The notes beneath the pieces are model-generated. The model saw nothing but the letters and a program-made list of their open reading frames with translations, ran no database searches and was not told the DNA's origin. This document shows, piece after piece, positions 6,208-64,000 of a stretch of DNA of 64,000 bases. This DNA comes from Nitrospirota bacterium (lineage in GTDB: Bacteria; Nitrospirota; Nitrospiria; Nitrospirales; Nitrospiraceae): the NCBI GenBank assembly GCA_963701855.1, contig CAVPBK010000011.1, positions 64,001 to 128,000 of the forward strand, in the 5' to 3' direction. Position 1 is the stretch's first letter, and every line of letters begins with the position of its first letter. The position numbers were made by a program, and so were the translations under genes.

Positions 6208-7485
6208 CTACTGCCAGTTCGCGGCGAGGATGCCCTGGAACTGCGTTTGGTCACCAGCACCCCCGCTCGCATCGTCCCAGCTCACGCCGGTATTTATCGT
6301 GAATTGAGCCATGGCTTGAATCAACTGATCGACTTGCGTGCTGAGCAGCACATCGCCATTGCCAGCCTGGATCGTCTCCGTCCGATTGACCGAACCTGTG
6401 TACCAGTTCTGCACGGTGATTTGGTCAGACGTGCCATGAATTGCAATCCGCAGATCGTTGGCTTGGCGGCTGATCACGAGGTCCAGCGGATTGATGTTAG
6501 TGTCGAATGATATCTGGTCGGCCGTGCCACTGCTGTCCTTGACCACATCTTGTCCATCGCCGCGGCTAAAGAGGAAGGTATCTTGGCCGCTACCACCGTT
6601 TACGGTGTCGTTCCCCAGACCGCCACGCAGGATGTCGTTGCCGGCCAGTCCAGAGAGTGTGTTGTCGCCGCTGTTGCCGGTGATGCTGTTATTGAGCGTG
6701 TTGCCGGTGCCATTCAGGTTCTCCAACCCGGTCAGCGTCAGGTGCTCGACATTGGCCCCCAGCGTATAGTTGACCGAGGATTGCACCGTGTCGTCGGTGC
6801 CGGCGTTCAGCGCTTCCGTAACAACGTCGGTGGTCACATCCACAAAATAGGTGTCGTCACCCAGGCCCCCGGCCATCTTGTCCGCGCCGGCTCCACCATC
6901 GAGGGTATCATCGCCCGCCCCGCCGAGGAGCTGGTCGTTGCCGTCCAGGCCCATGAGCTGGTTGTTCCCGCTGTTGCCGGTGAGAATGTTGGCGAGTTCG
7001 TTGCCGCTGCCGTTAATGTTAGCGATGCCAAGCAGGGTCAGGTTCTCAATATTGGAATTGGCCTCCAGCGTGAAATTTGCCGCAGAGCTTTGCACGAGAT
7101 CCTTGCCCCCGGCGGCGCCGACCCCTGTTTCGCGAGCCCAATCACCGGGGCTGTCCACCACGTAGGTATCATTGCCCGCGCCGCCATCCATCACATCGTT
7201 GCCTGTCCCGCCGTTGAGGGTGTCATTGCCCAAGCCGCCATTCATCGTGTCGCCGCCGTCCGAACCAATGAGACTATTGGCGCCGGCGCTCCCAGTGACG
7301 TGCACTGAACTGCCCAGCCCCGAGGCATCGAAGTTCTCGAAGCCATCCTGCACCAGCGTGTCGTCTGGTGTGCCGCCGATGAACACCACCTGATCGGCCA
7401 CCGACAGATCGACATCCACGACGCCGGTGAGGGGCCCCCCCACTGAGCACGAGTGTGTCGATGCCCACCCCGCCGTGGGCCACAT
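6208..7485 (-). CDS. RTX paralog 3, C-terminal fragment with T1SS signal region
   Basis: GGxGxD repeats; C-terminus nearly identical to that of 1818..5429. Confidence 0.85.
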   Translation of the reverse strand: MWPTAGWASTHSCSVGGPLTGVVDVDLSVADQVVFIGGTPDDTLVQDGFENFDASGLGSSVHVTGSAGANSLIGSDGGDTMNGGLGNDTLNGGTGNDVMDGGAGNDTYVVDSPGDWARETGVGAAGGKDLVQSSAANFTLEANSNIENLTLLGIANINGSGNELANILTGNSGNNQLMGLDGNDQLLGGAGDDTLDGGAGADKMAGGLGDDTYFVDVTTDVVTEALNAGTDDTVQSSVNYTLGANVEHLTLTGLENLNGTGNTLNNSITGNSGDNTLSGLAGNDILRGGLGNDTVNGGSGQDTFLFSRGDGQDVVKDSSGTADQISFDTNINPLDLVISRQANDLRIAIHGTSDQITVQNWYTGSVNRTETIQAGNGDVLLSTQVDQLIQAMAQFTINTGVSWDDASGGAGDQTQFQGILAANWQ

Positions 7486-54388: not shown

Positions 54389-55609
54389 TCACTCACATTG
54401 CACGAACTGAGTTTCCCGGCAGCGCCGCGCCATCTCCTGCGCCTGCTCAATCTGTTCGGCGGTCATGTCTGAGGCCAGAGTGGTTTGATTCCTGATAGCA
54501 GTCTTCACATCATCGCCTCTCGACCCTGGGATCGCAAGGGTGAGCCACATGTACGCGCGGATCACATCCTTCGGCAGGCCCTGCCCATTGGCATACAACA
54601 CGCCGAGATTGCTCTGCGCCCGTGCATGTCCCTGTTGCGCCGCCCGACGATACCACCGCGCGGCCTCTTTATAACTCTGCGACACCCCCTGCCCGTTGTC
54701 ATACCTCACACCAAGATTGAACTGCGCCGATACATCCCCCTGCTCAGCCGCGCGCCGGTACCACAAGACGGCCTCCTCATAGTTCCGCGCCACGCCTTGT
54801 CCATTGGCATACAGTACACCCAGCTGAAACTGTGCCAGCGCATCTCCCAGGTCAGCCGCCCGCCGGTACCATTGTATGGCCAGGCGATAGTCCTTCGGTA
54901 GGCCCTGCCCGCGGGCATACAACAAGCCCAAATGGCTCTGCGCCCGCGCATGTCCTTGGTCAGCCGCCTGCTGGTACCACTGAATTGCCTCCTCGTAGCT
55001 CTGCGGCACGCCTTGTCCATTGGCATACAGCACACCCAGCTGAAACTGTGCTGGCGCATGTCTTTGATCAGCTGCCCGCCGATACCACCGCCCGGCCTCT
55101 TCATAACTCTGCGACACCCCCTGCCCGCCGACATACAGCATACCCAGCTGGAACTGTGCCGCAGCGACTCTCTGGTCAGCCGCCCGCCGGTACCACTGCC
55201 CGGCCTCTTCATAACTCTGCGACACCCCCTGCCCGCCGACATACAGCATACCCAGCTGGAACTGTGCCGCAGCATCTCCCTGTTCCGCTGCCCGCCGATA
55301 CCACCGTCCAGCCATCTCATAATTCTGCAGAACGCCCTGCCCGTTGGCATAGAGCACACCCAGAAAACTCTGTGCCCCGGCATGTCCCTGTTCAGCCAGA
55401 GGACGGAAGAGTCGCGCCGCAAGGTCATAGTTATCACGATGAACCGCAGAGACGGCATCTGTATAGGAATCGGCCCCCGAGACGGTCGCAGAAGCCGCAA
55501 CCAAGAACAGGGCAAAGAGAACTCCCCGCATCAATGAGCTGCCTTTCAACATACCCACAGCATCAACAGCCGGAGCGCCGCAAAAGGGACAGGTGAAGGA
55601 GTATTCCAC
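54389..55609 (-). CDS. Sel1-repeat protein; true start probably near 55549 or 55528
   Basis: Eight to nine 36-aa AQF.LG..Y..GQGV...Y.EA..WYRRAA.QG repeats; signal-like segment after MRGVLF. Confidence 0.92.
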   Translation of the reverse strand: MEYSFTCPFCGAPAVDAVGMLKGSSLMRGVLFALFLVAASATVSGADSYTDAVSAVHRDNYDLAARLFRPLAEQGHAGAQSFLGVLYANGQGVLQNYEMAGRWYRRAAEQGDAAAQFQLGMLYVGGQGVSQSYEEAGQWYRRAADQRVAAAQFQLGMLYVGGQGVSQSYEEAGRWYRRAADQRHAPAQFQLGVLYANGQGVPQSYEEAIQWYQQAADQGHARAQSHLGLLYARGQGLPKDYRLAIQWYRRAADLGDALAQFQLGVLYANGQGVARNYEEAVLWYRRAAEQGDVSAQFNLGVRYDNGQGVSQSYKEAARWYRRAAQQGHARAQSNLGVLYANGQGLPKDVIRAYMWLTLAIPGSRGDDVKTAIRNQTTLASDMTAEQIEQAQEMARRCRETQFVQCE

Positions 55610-60109: not shown

Positions 60110-61636
60110 TCAAACCTTCTTTTCTTGTGGTTCACTGCCTAGATCATTCGCAATCAGTCGGAATTGTTCCAAAGCTGCTTCGAGGTCGTCGACGATTTCT
60201 TGGGCGATGATGTCGGGGTTAGGAAGATTTGCGGAGTCTTCTAGGGAGTCGTCTTTGAGCCAGAAGATGTCGAGGCTGGCTTTGTCGCGGCCGATGAGCT
60301 CGTCGTAGTCGTAGGCACGCCAACGGCCATCTAGTTTCTTGTCGGACCAGGTGGCTTTGCGGGTGTGGCGGTTGCCGGCCTGTTTGTCGGGCCGGTCGTG
60401 ATGGCCGTTGTAGCATTTCACGAATTCGTCCAGGTCTTCGCGCTTGAGCGGATCGGTCTTGAGCGTGAAGTGCTGGTTGGTGCGGAGGTCGTAGATCCAG
60501 AGCTTCTTGGTCCAGGGACTCTCGCTCGCCGGTTTTTTGTCGAAGAAGAGCACGTTGGCTTTCACACCCTGCGCATAGAAGAGGCCGGTCGGCAGGCGCA
60601 GGAGTGTGTGCACGTCGCACTCGTGCAAAAGCTTGCGCCGGACGGTTTCTCCCGCGCCACCTTCGAAGAGAACGTTGTCAGGCACCACGACTGCGGCGCG
60701 GCCATTCTGCTTCAGCAACGTTTTGACATGCTGGACGAAGTTGAGTTGCTTGTTGGAGGTCGTCGCCCAGAAGTCGTCACGCTCGACGATGTCCCGTTCC
60801 TTAGAGACCTGCCCTTCTTCCCCCACAATGGTCGTGCTGCTTTTCTTCCCAAAGGGTGGATTAGTCATCACGATGTCGAACCGATCGCCCGGATCAGCGG
60901 CCAAGGAATCGGCCACAACGATGGGCAGGTCTTTGTCGCTTCCGATCCCGTGGAGCATCATGTTCATCGCGCAGAGTCGTGCAGTGCTTTGGACCAATTC
61001 CCATCCCTTGAACGTGCCTTGCTTCAGTTGTCGCTTTTCGTCCTTAGTCAGGTTGGGATAATGCTTCACGATGTAGTCATGTGCAGCCAGGAAAAATCCG
61101 CCGGTTCCACAGGCCGGGTCGCAGATGGTCTCGCCGGACTTCGGGGCAATGGCCTCCACCATCGCGGCGATTAGCGGGCGCGGTGTGAAGTACTGTCCCG
61201 CGCCGGACTTGGTGTCTTGCGCGTTCTTTTCCAGCAAGCCCTCGTAGGCATCCCCTTTCACATCGGCGCTCATCGTGGACCAATCTTCTTTGTCGATCAG
61301 ATCCACAATCAGCCGCCGCAGCTTGACGGGGTCTTGAAACTTATTCTGGGCCTTCGTAAAGATCAGGCCGAGCATGCCTTTCCCTTTGCCAAGCTCTTCA
61401 AGGAGATGGCGGTAGTGGTCGAAGAGGTCGTCGCCGTCCCTCTTCAGCAGGCTGGGCCAACTGTACTTGTCGGGAATCTGGCTGGGCTGATTGTACGGCG
61501 GCTTGGTCCGCTCGTCGGCCATCTTGAGAAACAGCAGATACGTCAACTGTTCCACATAGTCGCCGTAGCTCATCCCATCGTCGCGGAGGACGTTGCAGTA
61601 GTTCCAGAGTTTTTGAACGATTTGGTTATTTCTCAT
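60110..61636 (-). CDS. hsdM: Type I R-M methyltransferase subunit
   Basis: IVQKLW..CNVLRDDG, YVEQLTYLLFLKM, GQYFTPR, DPACGTGGF, NPPF. Confidence 0.96.
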   Translation of the reverse strand: MRNNQIVQKLWNYCNVLRDDGMSYGDYVEQLTYLLFLKMADERTKPPYNQPSQIPDKYSWPSLLKRDGDDLFDHYRHLLEELGKGKGMLGLIFTKAQNKFQDPVKLRRLIVDLIDKEDWSTMSADVKGDAYEGLLEKNAQDTKSGAGQYFTPRPLIAAMVEAIAPKSGETICDPACGTGGFFLAAHDYIVKHYPNLTKDEKRQLKQGTFKGWELVQSTARLCAMNMMLHGIGSDKDLPIVVADSLAADPGDRFDIVMTNPPFGKKSSTTIVGEEGQVSKERDIVERDDFWATTSNKQLNFVQHVKTLLKQNGRAAVVVPDNVLFEGGAGETVRRKLLHECDVHTLLRLPTGLFYAQGVKANVLFFDKKPASESPWTKKLWIYDLRTNQHFTLKTDPLKREDLDEFVKCYNGHHDRPDKQAGNRHTRKATWSDKKLDGRWRAYDYDELIGRDKASLDIFWLKDDSLEDSANLPNPDIIAQEIVDDLEAALEQFRLIANDLGSEPQEKKV

Positions 61637-61708
61637 CAATATTCTACAGATAATCCCTTTGCCGCATGGGGGATAGCGTTGCAAAACAGAAACTACGGCA
61701 CTCTGGCC

Positions 61709-62134
61709 CTACCTTGCTCCTGAGAACAAGACTCGCTTGATGAAGCTTTCGTCTACATATGAAAATGACTGCGGCACTTTAAAGCCGCTACGCACTTCTG
61801 TAGGTTCAAGCTCCTTTTTGAGTCTCACAGCACGCCGGAGTGATATGAAGACAGCGGACTCTGACCCAGAAAAGTATGCCTTAAATGCACTCCTGGAAAT
61901 TCCTGCAGCCTGTCTGGTCTGTCTCCATGTCGCCGACACAGATGCCGCTGTTACTCTGACGACCTCAGCTATCCCCACTATCTTCTTCACTGGCGAAGTA
62001 GAGTAGATCACAACGTGCGTTATATCCTGTCGCAACCGAGATCTCCTGAACTCGTATTTCTTGCTTCCCTCAAGAATACGATTTGCATAGATGGGCTTAA
62101 TCGGCAAAAAAGCAATTACCGAGTCGGCACTCAT
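61709..62134 (-). CDS. ASCH-domain protein
   Basis: IKPIYANRILEGSKKYEFRR (GxKxxExR), IYSTSP...IVG, PQSF.Y. Confidence 0.88.
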   Translation of the reverse strand: MSADSVIAFLPIKPIYANRILEGSKKYEFRRSRLRQDITHVVIYSTSPVKKIVGIAEVVRVTAASVSATWRQTRQAAGISRSAFKAYFSGSESAVFISLRRAVRLKKELEPTEVRSGFKVPQSFSYVDESFIKRVLFSGAR

Positions 62135-63578
62135 CCACGACCTTCCGAAACGCTTCATTAGATATTTTTCTGATTGTCTGGATTTGCCCATTCACTACCC
62201 CTTGCTCAGATAACCAGTTAGAGGGAATCACATTCTGAAGGTGAGCTGCTAACCGAAACAATATTACTTTCGTCTTTTTCTCTGCGATCTTCACAATATC
62301 GTCGTAAGAGTACACTGTTCGCTTTGAAACAAGCTGCAAAATTTTGTCGTGATCCTGGTACTCATGGACCGACTCTACAACGCCAATGCTTGTAATGGCT
62401 TGGATATCCTGAGATCTGTAGAAAAACAGAATGTCTCCCGACTTAATACCGCTGATTCTCGCGTGGCAAAGATATGCCTGCTTAATCGCGTGCCCTGCAC
62501 TTGATGGGCCAAAGAGGCTTGGTTGAATTTGGATTTCCGGGAAAAGGACTTTGTGATACTCAGGACGAATAGGCACGATGTACTTACCGACTTCTCTACT
62601 GCTGAGAATATGGGGATAGAAGAGACGATGGTATTCGAGTGGAGGAAGCGCAACCTCAGGTGGGTGTAAGGGATGCTCCTTCACAAAGACATGATCGTTT
62701 TGGTATTCACCAAATATTGTGAAGCCAAAATCGGCACAGAGGTCCTCAAGAAAGTCTTGTTTGCCTGGCCTCATAGTGATGTAGATATGCTTTAGCCGGT
62801 TGTTCGTCGCATAGCGAAACGCTGCTTTTAGTAGAAGTTCGCCGAGCTTACGGCCACGTGCCTGTTCAGCAACTTTGAATGTGCATAGCTTGAGTGTCCT
62901 TCCAGGCAATGCCTGGTTGTCATTGGTCACGATTGGATCGCGCTCTTCCTTGAAGATTGCTATAGCTCCCGGATTTCCATCGGAATCACGATATACCCAA
63001 GCCGTCCGCCCTTCCCTAGCTTTTTCCTGATACCACTTGTCAAATTTGTAATCACTCCTCAGGGAATCGAAAAACGAATTCTCCAAATCAATCTGGTGCA
63101 GCGGAACCTCTTCGATACTGGGCAGAACAACTCCAACGCGCGCGTGGAGGTGTTCTAGGAAGGATGTAGCTTGCTGGATGTAGTGAACTCGGTCAGCAAT
63201 TCCGATTTGCAATGCTTTCTTGTGAAGCTCTCGGTCCTCGGTAATGAGGATGTTGGCAGCATCGCGATAAAGGGCATAGAGGATCTCATTATCGACCCGG
63301 TCGTTGTCATCGCGTTCTATAAGCCCTAGCTTAGACAGTTCTGCGGCAGCTGGTCTTGGCGGATTCCCCAGAGTGGAGTACTTGCGAAGCCGCGACAGGC
63401 TGATGTCGCGGCGCTTCTTGTCTGGGTCACGGGCTATGTCGTCATTGGAGGACGGGTGTGCGAGGAGCTGATGTCCATTCTCGCTTGCAAGACGGACCAG
63501 TTTGCTAAGGCTCTCTTCAAGAACACGAGTTGAATCTTCCAGGGGAATTACAACATTGGTATCAATGAGGATTCTCAA
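62097..63578 (-). CDS. PIN-GNAT-EVE/PUA fusion protein
   Basis: PIN ILIDTNVV...DNEIL...LITEDR; GNAT LKLCTFKV...RGRKLGELLLK; C-terminal PUA-like PIRPEYH..LFPE, KQAYLC, GDILFFYRS. Confidence 0.85.
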   Translation of the reverse strand: MRILIDTNVVIPLEDSTRVLEESLSKLVRLASENGHQLLAHPSSNDDIARDPDKKRRDISLSRLRKYSTLGNPPRPAAAELSKLGLIERDDNDRVDNEILYALYRDAANILITEDRELHKKALQIGIADRVHYIQQATSFLEHLHARVGVVLPSIEEVPLHQIDLENSFFDSLRSDYKFDKWYQEKAREGRTAWVYRDSDGNPGAIAIFKEERDPIVTNDNQALPGRTLKLCTFKVAEQARGRKLGELLLKAAFRYATNNRLKHIYITMRPGKQDFLEDLCADFGFTIFGEYQNDHVFVKEHPLHPPEVALPPLEYHRLFYPHILSSREVGKYIVPIRPEYHKVLFPEIQIQPSLFGPSSAGHAIKQAYLCHARISGIKSGDILFFYRSQDIQAITSIGVVESVHEYQDHDKILQLVSKRTVYSYDDIVKIAEKKTKVILFRLAAHLQNVIPSNWLSEQGVVNGQIQTIRKISNEAFRKVVDECRLGNCFFAD

Positions 63579-63602
63579 AGCCTGAGACTTCCAGGAGCTG
63601 GC

Positions 63603-64000
63603 TCACGTTTCATTGCTTCGCCCAGATAGCAAACGGCCAGCAAAAGCCTGGCTAAGGATTGATTGTCGCAGCCGGTCGGCGCGGGTGAGGTTGGTTTGGA
63701 CGGTGGCTTCGAGTTCCTCGATGACGGATAGGCGGCGCTCGACTTCGGCGATGATTTGCTCTTGCTCTACCACCTGAGGAATATCGAGCGGTAACACTTT
63801 GAGATCACCGCCTGAGATCCCAGATTGTCCAGCCGTGGTCCGAATCTTCGACTCAATGTATTCGCGCGCGCGGCCAGTCGAGGCGAGGATCACCAAGAAC
63901 TCGGGAAGCATCATCAAGCGGGGGACACGAACTCGTATCAGCTTGTCTGGGTAAACCGTGGGAGGCAGGTTTGCCGGCACTCGTGCGCACACGCCAACAT
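63603..64000 (-). CDS. hsdS: Type I R-M specificity subunit, 3' part (runs off the right edge)
   Basis: TTAGQSGIS, EQEQII.EVERRLS...LRQSILSQAFAGRL. Confidence 0.92.
   Translation of the reverse strand, partial: VGVCARVPANLPPTVYPDKLIRVRVPRLMMLPEFLVILASTGRAREYIESKIRTTAGQSGISGGDLKVLPLDIPQVVEQEQIIAEVERRLSVIEELEATVQTNLTRADRLRQSILSQAFAGRLLSGRSNET

What the first reader, a model, noticed from the sequence alone, without database searches (positions are those of the whole stretch)
61709..63578. PIN-GNAT-EVE/PUA plus ASCH module embedded inside a type I R-M operon
Seen: the order is hsdS, PIN-GNAT-PUA (493 aa), ASCH, hsdM on one strand, with a 24-bp gap, a 38-bp overlap and a 72-bp gap; the two inserted genes look more AT-rich than hsdM. 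Established: PIN domains are RNases, GNAT toxins acetylate aminoacyl-tRNA, EVE/ASCH (PUA-like) domains bind modified nucleic acids, and type I R-M loci host backup defences such as PrrC. Computational surveys have, as I recall, noted this architecture near R-M genes, but I know of no experimental mechanism. Inference: an anti-phage guard that senses modified bases or R-M inhibition and triggers tRNA/RNA attack, with ASCH possibly reversing acetylation as an antitoxin (the E. coli ASCH protein YqfB hydrolyses N4-acetylcytidine).
Basis: partly seen in the sequence, partly recalled or inferred. Interest (0 to 1): 0.82.

Follow-up and report, generated by a model that had tools for sequence, protein, structure and literature searches.

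The report
Known defence-candidate pair inside restriction operon
Two overlapping genes wedged between the specificity and methylase genes of a restriction system are a foreign, already catalogued but never tested candidate phage-defence pair, sitting in a slot where related bacteria carry other defence genes.

Summary
On the minus strand the order is hsdS, a 493-aa PIN-GNAT-PUA-like protein (A, 62097-63578), a 141-aa ASCH protein (B, 61709-62134), then hsdM. The gaps are as reported, and the two genes have GC 0.48 against 0.565 for the window.

It is not new. A and B match PADLOC candidate PDC-M11 (E 1e-140 and 4e-42). The architecture, including its link to type I R-M, was described by Bell, Wolf and Koonin (2020). 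My searches found no experimental test.

- B follows A in 89 of 92 related loci.
- Only 8 of 21 long-flank loci touch type I R-M. Most of the others sit beside other defence or mobile genes.
- Sister genomes with the same operon (HsdM 93-96% identical) carry DarTG, PDC-M30 or unknown genes in exactly this slot.
- B belongs to the ZmASCH subfamily (profile E 2e-30). YqfB was not retrieved, so the deacetylase-antitoxin idea gains no support.
- hsdR of this operon is frameshifted.

Most likely this is a mobile anti-phage cassette. PUA-like readers would direct or trigger a PIN RNase and a GNAT acetyltransferase. The mechanism is inferred only.

The parts
63603..64000 (-). 3' part of hsdS. The whole gene is 406 aa and runs to 64823, beyond the window.
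   Evidence: PADLOC Specificity_I E 4.6e-29 and NCBIfam PRK09737 E 5.6e-20. The full ORF is L002 3603-4823.
62097..63578 (-). Gene A: PIN-GNAT-PUA-like protein, 493 aa (PDC-M11A)
   Evidence: PADLOC PDC-M11A E 1.1e-140, residues 1-487 on model positions 1-495 of 501. 1749 relatives at E<=0.001 among 8000 candidates scored. AlphaFold model pLDDT 87.4.
63144..63578 (-). PIN domain of A (about aa 1-145)
   Evidence: VIA-align Z 11.0 to VapC of VapBC2 and Z 10.6 to VapC11. D6, D96 and D115 are invariant; D47, D51 and E114 are invariant or nearly so in the 35- and 28-sequence alignments.
62664..63116 (-). GNAT acetyltransferase domain of A (about aa 155-305)
   Evidence: Pfam Acetyltransf_1 E 4.1e-6, above cut-off. 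The RGRKLG stretch has G242 and G246 invariant. Foldseek hits to NatD, Naa10/50 and TacT at E 1e-6 to 3e-5.
62139..62606 (-). PUA-like (EVE/ASCH-like) C-terminal domain of A (about aa 325-480)
   Evidence: Foldseek top hits are ZmASCH 5GUQ/5GUS/5Y6B (E 2.6e-7, TMt 0.76-0.82). Pfam EVE E 0.003 is below cut-off. Invariant residues include Y369, R388, R420, R442 and H446.
61709..62134 (-). Gene B: ASCH protein, 141 aa (PDC-M11B), overlapping the end of A by 38 bp
   Evidence: PADLOC PDC-M11B E 3.9e-42. Pfam ASCH above cut-off. ZmASCH E 4.5e-13 with the single sequence and 2.2e-30 with the profile. K25, E28, R30, Y44, W70 and P121-Q122-S123 are invariant in 32 sequences.
60110..61636 (-). hsdM, type I m6A DNA methyltransferase, 508 aa
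   Evidence: Pfam N6_Mtase E 4.5e-73 and HsdM_N E 9.2e-12. PADLOC MTase_I E 2.8e-203. Orthologues 93-96% identical in six sister genomes.
61629..63636 (.). Variable cargo slot. DNA homology with sister operons stops inside the last codons of hsdS and resumes at hsdM codons 3-5.
   Evidence: blastn of the operon against L112, L113, L114 and L116. Matches end at window 63628-63661 and restart at 61621-61628. GC and GC3 drop across this stretch.

Best explanation
Shown: genes A and B are an intact member of the (PIN)-GNAT-EVE + ASCH family, catalogued as PADLOC candidate PDC-M11. They were acquired horizontally and fill exactly the hsdS-hsdM slot of an EcoEI-type type I R-M operon. In sister genomes that slot holds other defence cargo.

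Inferred, about 0.65: the pair is an anti-phage module that works on its own and is merely lodged in the R-M operon.

Inferred, about 0.3: the mechanism is as follows.
- The two PUA-like modules (the C-terminal domain of A, and B) bind a modified base, either in nucleic acid or as a free nucleotide that appears during infection.
- This directs or releases the two catalytic domains of A.
- The PIN domain cuts RNA, most plausibly tRNA or rRNA as VapC toxins do.
- The GNAT domain acetylates an amino group on a nucleic acid or on aminoacyl-tRNA.
- Translation stops and the infection aborts.
- B is translationally coupled to A. It acts as the partner that holds A in check or supplies a second reader. 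It is not a demonstrated deacetylase.
For: Identity:
- PADLOC PDC-M11A and PDC-M11B at E 1.1e-140 and 3.9e-42.
- Bell et al. 2020 describe PIN-GNAT-EVE with ASCH and its association with type I R-M (passages read).

Conserved pairing:
- B lies directly downstream of A in 89 of 92 loci.
- The genes overlap in 85 of 86 loci, using starts picked by a heuristic.

Sites under selection:
- PIN acidic residues, GNAT motif glycines and basic or aromatic residues of the PUA-like domain are invariant in 35 sequences down to 47% identity.
- The GxKxxExR motif, Y44 and PQS are invariant in B.

Folds:
- PIN domain Z 11.0 to VapC.
- GNAT and ASCH-like hits.

Foreign origin:
- GC 0.48 and GC3 0.50, against 0.565 and 0.74.
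- Found in 5 of 401 genomes of the phylum.
- Relatives lie on Burkholderia, rhizobial, actinobacterial and haloarchaeal plasmids.

Defence context:
- Neighbours include CRISPR I-B, AbiEii, a Cap4 nuclease, SIR2, a Gabija-like OLD+UvrD pair, GmrSD and the cargo region of a P2-like prophage.
- Type I R-M genes flank the pair in 8 of 21 long-flank loci.

Slot:
- Sister operons with HsdM 93-96% identical carry DarT+DarG (E 1e-65 and 4.5e-136), PDC-M30 or unknown ORFs at the same place.
- The breakpoints are sharp.
Against: - No experiment on any member was found (searches; papers checked).
- Three of the 21 long-flank loci lie between housekeeping genes (L046, L052, L081).
- Sixteen of the 21 carry a third gene, an AAA_17 P-loop protein, which is fused to B in 10 of 87 loci. 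It is missing here, so this copy may be a reduced or incomplete version.
- The EVE assignment is below Pfam's cut-off.
- The substrates of PIN and GNAT are unknown. ZmASCH's RNase activity was weak and measured only in vitro (sections 14 and 16 read).
- Candidates found by embedding often fail when tested: 4 of 8 PDC/HEC candidates protected in one study (passages), and 2 of 2 gave no effect in another.
Confidence: 0.4

Rival explanations
1. One reading: a guard of the R-M system. It senses inhibition of the type I enzyme (Ocr, ArdA or Stp-like) or modified bases and then attacks tRNA. B reverses acetylation, as YqfB hydrolyses N4-acetylcytidine, and so acts as an enzymatic antitoxin.
For: - The pair is embedded in a type I operon here and in L003, L016, L020 and L083.
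- Bell et al. report frequent association with type I R-M.
- A toxin with a reversing-enzyme antitoxin (DarTG) occupies the same slot in a sister genome, so the logic has a precedent at this very site.
Against: - Thirteen of the 21 long-flank loci have no type I gene next to the pair.
- Plasmid copies lack R-M neighbours.
- hsdR is frameshifted here while A and B are intact.
- B is of the ZmASCH subfamily (E 2.2e-30), and YqfB was not retrieved at E<=10.
- A has no resemblance to PrrC.
Confidence: 0.1
2. A type IV-like, modification-dependent restriction module. The PUA-like domains read hypermodified phage DNA (or its transcripts), and the PIN nuclease and GNAT act directly on the invader without harming the cell. 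This would complement the type I enzyme, which modified DNA escapes.
For: - PUA-like readers fused to nucleases are the rule in modification-dependent restriction (Bell et al.).
- One locus has GmrSD and another an Mrr-like gene as immediate neighbours (L090; L114).
- B's relative ZmASCH binds nucleic acids.
Against: - The PIN domain's best structural matches are RNA-cutting VapC, SMG6, Utp24 and RNase P-type PINs.
- A GNAT domain has no known role in restriction.
- No DNA-cutting domain is present.
Confidence: 0.15
3. A nucleic-acid acetylation system (credited to Iyer et al. 2013 by Bell et al.). GNAT writes an acetyl mark on a base in DNA or RNA. The EVE-like domain and ASCH read or remove it, giving a self-mark that parallels the methyl mark of HsdM.
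For: - A writer domain is fused to a reader domain, and a second reader is always adjacent.
- The pair sits in a DNA-modification operon.
- Bell et al. quote this proposal.
Against: - The conserved and apparently active PIN nuclease has no role in such a scheme.
- The pair is sporadic and mobile (5 of 401 genomes), unlike a housekeeping mark.
- I could not read Iyer et al. 2013 (not held).
Confidence: 0.1
4. A plain addiction (toxin-antitoxin) module that stabilises the R-M island or the plasmids it rides on, with no anti-phage role.
For: - PIN and GNAT are classic toxin domains.
- The two genes are tightly coupled.
- Copies occur on plasmids.
- A ParE/antitoxin pair lies in the same operon.
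Against: - The gene order and partner differ from VapBC and from TacAT-type pairs. There is no RHH or VapB antitoxin, and the partner lies downstream.
- The cassette occupies prophage cargo regions and defence islands.
Confidence: 0.1

Closest known systems
PADLOC phage-defence candidate PDC-M11 (A+B), one of 145 candidates from the guilt-by-embedding survey of Payne et al. 2024 (bioRxiv 10.1101/2024.01.29.577857)
   Same: Both proteins match the models end to end. The genes are adjacent on one strand and embedded in a type I R-M operon, which is how those candidates were found.
   Different: Nothing structural. The main text of the preprint does not mention ASCH, GNAT or PDC-M, and its supplements are closed, so the link rests on the PADLOC model names. 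Untested experimentally.
(PIN)-GNAT-EVE + ASCH (+AAA_17) operons, Bell, Wolf and Koonin 2020, BMC Biol 18:159
   Same: Same three-domain protein, same ASCH neighbour, and the same reported association of the PIN-bearing form with HsdR/M/S operons.
   Different: This copy has no AAA_17 gene. A PIN-bearing form also occurs in a P2-like prophage (L099), so the split between host PIN forms and prophage PIN-less forms is not absolute.
ZmASCH (ZMO0922; PDB 5GUQ), Kim et al. 2017, Sci Rep 7:12303
   Same: B aligns over its full length (E 4.5e-13 single sequence, 2.2e-30 profile). The equivalents of Tyr47 and Ser128 are invariant in the B family.
   Different: The Lys53 equivalent is K or Q across the family. 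Whether ZMO0922 has a GNAT-EVE neighbour was not checked. Its RNase activity is weak and shown only in vitro.
VapC PIN toxins and GNAT toxins (TacT, AtaT)
   Same: PIN fold at Z 9-11 with the acidic residues kept. GNAT fold with an intact acetyl-CoA motif, and TacT among the Foldseek hits.
   Different: Here the two are fused in one 493-aa protein with a reader domain. There is no VapB or RHH antitoxin. Eukaryotic N-terminal acetyltransferases score as well as TacT does.
PrrC and other cargo embedded in type I R-M operons
   Same: Lodged inside an hsd operon.
   Different: No homology. The pair is portable and mostly found without R-M.
DarTG
   Same: Occupies the same hsdS-hsdM slot in a sister genome. 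It is a precedent for a nucleic-acid-modifying toxin paired with an enzyme partner.
   Different: Unrelated folds. Reversal by B is not shown.
PUA-Cal-HAD defence (bioRxiv 10.64898/2026.01.15.699771; only the start of the abstract seen)
   Same: A PUA-type reader serves as the infection sensor in an anti-phage system.
   Different: Different effectors. The ligand of A and B is unknown.

Membership tests
PADLOC PDC-M11 | Protein A matches a PDC-M11A model | tested here: met
   E 1.1e-140, residues 1-487 on model positions 1-495 of 501
PADLOC PDC-M11 | Protein B matches a PDC-M11B model and is adjacent on the same strand | tested here: met
   E 3.9e-42. B overlaps A by 38 bp.
PADLOC PDC-M11 | Confers phage resistance | not testable with these tools
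   No experimental report found
(PIN)-GNAT-EVE + ASCH operon (Bell et al. 2020) | N-terminal PIN domain with acidic active-site residues | tested here: met
   Pfam PIN_3 alone is below cut-off. The fold matches VapC at Z 11.0, and D6, D96 and D115 are invariant.
(PIN)-GNAT-EVE + ASCH operon (Bell et al. 2020) | Central GNAT domain | tested here: met
   Acetyltransf_1 at 27.5 bits against a 20.7 cut-off. G242 and G246 are invariant.
(PIN)-GNAT-EVE + ASCH operon (Bell et al. 2020) | C-terminal EVE domain | tested here: inconclusive
   Pfam EVE at 18.1 bits against a 23 cut-off. The best structural match is an ASCH protein. PUA-like is certain; EVE specifically is not.
(PIN)-GNAT-EVE + ASCH operon (Bell et al. 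2020) | Separate ASCH gene in the operon | tested here: met
   Pfam ASCH above cut-off. Present in 89 of 92 loci.
(PIN)-GNAT-EVE + ASCH operon (Bell et al. 2020) | AAA_17 ATPase gene (frequent, not invariable) | tested here: not met
   hsdM follows B directly. AAA_17 is present in 16 of 21 long-flank loci elsewhere.
ZmASCH subfamily of ASCH | Full-length sequence similarity and the cleft residues Tyr47 and Ser128 | tested here: met
   E 2.2e-30 over profile positions 5-139. Y44 and S123 are invariant.
YqfB-type N4-acetylcytidine amidohydrolase | Detectable similarity to YqfB and its catalytic residues | tested here: inconclusive
   YqfB is not among the PDB matches at E<=10 with the single sequence or the profile. 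The residues could not be compared.
Type II GNAT toxin-antitoxin (TacAT/AtaRT) | Small GNAT toxin with an upstream RHH antitoxin | tested here: not met
   GNAT is the middle domain of a 493-aa protein. The partner lies downstream and is an ASCH protein.
VapBC | Stand-alone PIN toxin with a VapB-type antitoxin | tested here: not met
   The PIN domain is fused to GNAT and a PUA-like domain, and no VapB gene is present.
PrrC-type R-M guard | Anticodon nuclease related to PrrC, found almost only inside hsd operons | tested here: not met
   No PrrC model among the PADLOC hits. Thirteen of 21 long-flank loci lack type I neighbours.

The most novel reading that the evidence does not exclude
The EVE-like domain of A and the ASCH protein B read the N6-methyladenine mark that the co-encoded HsdM (or any host methylase) writes. 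One route is methylated nucleotides released when a phage degrades the chromosome, as reported for PUA-Cal-HAD. This would switch on an RNA-cutting and acetylating effector. The restriction system's methylome would then double as the alarm signal for a second, abortive line of defence. Separately, the hsdS-hsdM junction would be a dedicated cassette-exchange site, marked by duplicated hsdM 5' ends.
Probability: 0.08. Interest if true: 0.8.

Novelty: new member of a known kind. Interest (0 to 1): 0.35.

Why it matters
No published function was found for the family, although it is widespread: at least 523 relatives turned up in one metagenome scan, and copies lie on plasmids of bacteria and archaea. 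It joins three domains (a nuclease, an acetyltransferase and a modified-base reader) whose joint logic is unexplained. This locus does not change that.

It does offer a clean natural comparison. Near-identical R-M operons carry PDC-M11, DarTG, PDC-M30 or unknown genes in one sharply bounded slot. That supports a defence role. It also points to the untested neighbours (for example the 656-aa and 239-aa ORFs in L112) as further candidates.

Tried and rejected
- Complex prediction on A (alignment A1) with B (alignment A2) gave no verdict: score 0.00 in two runs, controls not folded. It says nothing either way.
- The profile-profile comparison of B with A put B on A's C-terminal domain (334-494), but only at probability 2.3% and E 0.02. 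The two are not demonstrably paralogous.
- The promoter and terminator scan of the operon found 0 sigma-70-like sites (4.1 expected) and only weak terminator-like hairpins, 15 against 9.7 expected. There is no evidence for or against a separate promoter for A-B.
Wider context came from metagenome, viral, plasmid and G-handle searches instead.
- Iyer et al. 2013 could not be read. It is cited only through Bell et al.
- Earlier-findings look-ups by place and by sequence returned nothing.
- YqfB was not retrieved in either PDB sequence search.
- I did not check whether ZMO0922 sits next to a GNAT-EVE gene, because no route to that genome was left.
Full report
**Anatomy.** The minus strand of the window's right end carries four features:
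- the last 131 codons of hsdS (stop at 63603);
- a 493-aa ORF, A (62097-63578, TTG start);
- an ASCH ORF, B (ending at 61709);
- hsdM (60110-61636).

- hsdS to A is 24 bp.
- A and B overlap by 38 bp if B starts at ATG 62134. That start has a GGAAGG box 6 nt upstream and gives a protein the length of the PADLOC model.
- B to hsdM is 72 bp to ATG 61636.

Reading beyond the window gives the whole operon: hsdR (EcoEI type), a small toxin-antitoxin pair, hsdS (406 aa), A, B and hsdM. A dienelactone hydrolase gene follows.

**Domains.**
- In A, Pfam supports GNAT above its cut-off. PIN_3 and EVE fall below theirs.
- A 35-sequence alignment reaching down to 47% identity keeps the following invariant: D6, D47, D51, D96, E114 and D115 in the N-terminal part; G242 and G246 in RGRKLG; and a set of aromatic and basic residues in the C-terminal part.
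- The AlphaFold model of A has pLDDT 87.4 and pTM 0.76.
- Foldseek places its C-terminal domain on the ZmASCH crystal structures (E 2.6e-7, TMt 0.76-0.82). It places the middle domain on N-acetyltransferases, including NatD, Naa10/50 and TacT.
- Folded alone, residues 1-150 (pLDDT 85.6) match VapC toxins at Z 9-11. Nearly all of the top 30 representatives are PIN proteins.
- B passes Pfam ASCH.
- B is a full-length relative of ZmASCH (E 4.5e-13 as a single sequence; E 2.2e-30 as a 32-sequence profile).
- In that alignment the GxKxxExR residues (K25, E28, R30), Y44, W70, Y87 and P121-Q122-S123 are invariant. Y44 and S123 correspond to Tyr47 and Ser128, which Kim et al. 2017 mutated in ZmASCH (abstract and sections 5, 14 and 16 read).
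- YqfB did not appear in either PDB sequence search at E up to 10.

**What it is called.**
- A and B match PADLOC's PDC-M11A and PDC-M11B at E 1.1e-140 and 3.9e-42.
- The PDC candidates come from Payne et al. 2024. They took genes embedded in BREX, DISARM and type I R-M systems, curated 145 candidates and added them to PADLOC (sections 10 and 17 read). The preprint's main text does not mention ASCH, GNAT or PDC-M, and its supplements are closed.
- Bell, Wolf and Koonin 2020 (passages read) describe the same thing in detail.
  - EVE is fused to the C-terminus of a GNAT, often with an N-terminal PIN.
  - Almost all operons encode an ASCH protein, and often an AAA_17 ATPase.
  - The PIN-bearing form is frequently associated with HsdR/M/S operons.
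  - None of the modules has been characterised experimentally.
  - They credit Iyer et al. 2013, which I could not read, with the idea of DNA-base acetylation.
- Full-text searches found only inventories and those surveys:
  - 'PDC-M11': 3 papers, 2 read at the hit.
  - 'GNAT-EVE': 2 papers, both Bell et al..
  - ASCH + GNAT + PIN + 'phage defense'.
  - 'ASCH domain' + acetyltransferase + anti-phage.
- Three experimental screens that I checked do not mention the system.
- Earlier notes of this scan on other genomes reached the same filing.

**Conservation of the pair.** I gathered 92 related loci: 80 from metagenomes, 7 viral contigs, 4 from genomes of the phylum and 1 genome contig.
- tblastn finds B directly downstream of A in 89 of the 92.
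- The three without B are L096, where A runs into the contig end, and L013 and L085, where it was not found.
- With heuristically chosen B starts, the two genes overlap in 85 of 86 loci, with a median overlap of 29 nt.
- In 10 of 87 loci B is fused to an AAA_17 domain, giving proteins of 320-337 aa.

**Context.** Twenty-one loci have at least 4.5 kb on both sides. I scanned their ORFs against Pfam at E<=1e-7.
- Type I R-M genes flank the pair in 8 of the 21.
  - Three have exactly the window's arrangement, hsdR-hsdS-A-B-hsdM (L016, L020, L083).
  - In the other five the pair sits at the 3' end of the operon (L031, L035, L058, L066, L095).
- Ten others have defence or mobile neighbours:
  - a Cap4 nuclease (L022);
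  - PIN_12, Abi_C and KAP NTPase (L036);
  - SIR2 on a Tn7-like element (L037);
  - an OLD-TOPRIM plus UvrD pair (L040);
  - GmrSD (L090);
  - a reverse transcriptase (L065);
  - MNT/HepT (L034);
  - Dcm/Vsr (L021);
  - an integrase (L057);
  - the cargo region of a P2-like prophage (L099).
- Three lie between housekeeping genes (L046, L052, L081).
- AAA_17 is present in 16 of the 21. It is absent from L016, L020, L052, L083 and L095, and from the window.
- Annotated plasmids show the pair beside CRISPR-Cas I-B in a haloarchaeon, beside AbiEii and a QueC-like gene in Sinorhizobium, and near integrases in Burkholderia and Rhodococcus.
- In the window's own phylum the protein was found in 5 of 401 genomes searched, and in none of the 12 other genomes of its genus.

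**The slot.**
- HsdM has orthologues of 93-96% identity in six genomes of the same family, and of 77-84% in several more. In all, 17 of 81 genomes have a match at E<=1e-60.
- Six of these operons were read in full, and all six have the order hsdR-hsdS-cargo-hsdM. The cargo differs in each.
  - L113 carries DarT and DarG (E 1e-65 and 4.5e-136) plus DUF6883.
  - L114 carries an Mrr-like gene plus PDC-M30.
  - L115 carries PDC-M30 plus small DUF2283, DUF6883 and DUF4926 genes.
  - L112 carries unknown ORFs of 656 and 239 aa.
  - L116 carries unknown ORFs.
  - L117 carries small DUF genes and a GIY-YIG gene.
- DNA homology between this operon and four of the sister operons ends at window 63628-63661, in the last codons of hsdS. 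It resumes at 61621-61628, at hsdM codons 3-5.
- Several sister operons keep copies of the hsdM 5' end, 38-118 bp long, between cargo genes. These look like scars of exchange by recombination.
- A and B have GC 0.48 and GC3 0.50, against 0.564 and 0.74 for hsdM. Only 2 of 622 sliding windows are as low.
- A and B are therefore recently acquired cargo in a hotspot that elsewhere holds a proven defence system and further candidates.

**State of the host operon.**
- hsdR is split by one frameshift in a GCGCGC run (L002 about 6255-6270). Relatives are 933-960 aa.
- The ParE-like gene between hsdR and hsdS is broken at a run of five G. Its antitoxin gene is intact.
- A 117-139-bp copy of the hsdR 3' end lies just before hsdS.
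- These breaks may be real or may be assembly errors.
- If they are real, restriction is off in this strain while A and B remain intact. That argues against strict dependence of A-B on the restriction enzyme.

**How it most likely works.**
- Shown: the fold and conserved catalytic signatures of a PIN nuclease and a GNAT, two PUA-like modules, strict pairing and coupling of A and B, mobility, and a defence-rich context.
- Inferred (about 0.65): the pair is an autonomous anti-phage module.
- Inferred (about 0.3): the PUA-like modules recognise a modified base in nucleic acid or a nucleotide that marks infection. This directs or unleashes PIN cleavage of RNA and GNAT acetylation, arresting translation. 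B acts as the checking or second-reader partner.
- I rank four rivals lower, for the reasons given under each: the R-M-guard and deacetylase model, direct modification-dependent restriction, an acetyl self-mark system, and a plain addiction module.
- The complex prediction gave no verdict and is not used.

**Verdict.**
- The system is an ordinary member of a kind that is known computationally and uncharacterised experimentally.
- The new points are the variable-cargo comparison with sister operons, the placement of B in the ZmASCH subfamily, and the B-AAA_17 fusions. They are useful but modest.

Noticed in passing
L002 6173-8524 and 5559-6116 (window-equivalent 65559-68524, beyond the window): hsdR of this operon is split by a single frameshift in a GCGCGC run at about L002 6255-6270. 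Relatives encode one protein of 933-960 aa with the EcoEI_R_C domain fused.
   Followed up: partly
L002 5024-5578 (window-equivalent 65024-65578): An Unstab_antitox gene and a ParE-like gene lie between hsdR and hsdS. The ParE-like gene is broken at a run of five G. An intact pair sits at the same place in sister genome L116 (7795-8387).
   Followed up: partly
L002 4820-4957 (window-equivalent 64820-64957): A 117-139-bp copy of the hsdR 3' end lies directly before hsdS. In sister operons the real hsdR end abuts hsdS at this point, so this looks like a scar of the toxin-antitoxin insertion.
   Followed up: partly
L112 11099-11209; L113 11202-11333; L114 10524-10691; L115 10865-11039; L117 4430-4513 and 5318-5533: Short copies of the hsdM 5' end (codons 1-46) lie between cargo genes upstream of the intact hsdM in sister operons. 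This suggests that cassettes are exchanged by recombination at the start of hsdM.
   Followed up: partly
L113 9500-11196: DarT (E 1e-65) and DarG (E 4.5e-136) occupy the hsdS-hsdM slot of a sister genome whose HsdM is 95% identical.
   Followed up: yes
L112 9087-11057 and 11275-11994; L116 9918-11327: ORFs of 656, 239, 258 and 204 aa in the same slot of sister operons have no Pfam or PADLOC match. They are untested defence candidates by position.
   Followed up: no
L027, L029, L034, L035, L040, L049, L050, L055, L073, L077: In these loci the ASCH protein is fused to an AAA_17 P-loop domain (320-337 aa). That ties the frequent third gene functionally to B.
   Followed up: partly
L099 4118-6536: A full-length PIN-bearing form with ASCH and AAA_17 sits in a P2-like prophage, between an ogr-like gene and the portal and terminase genes. 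PIN-bearing forms are therefore not confined to chromosomal R-M contexts.
   Followed up: no
window 54389-55609 (-): A 406-aa ORF made of repeated 'AAQFQLGxLYxxGQGV' units (Sel1/TPR-like by eye). Long overlapping ORFs in other frames are a by-product of the repeats.
   Followed up: no
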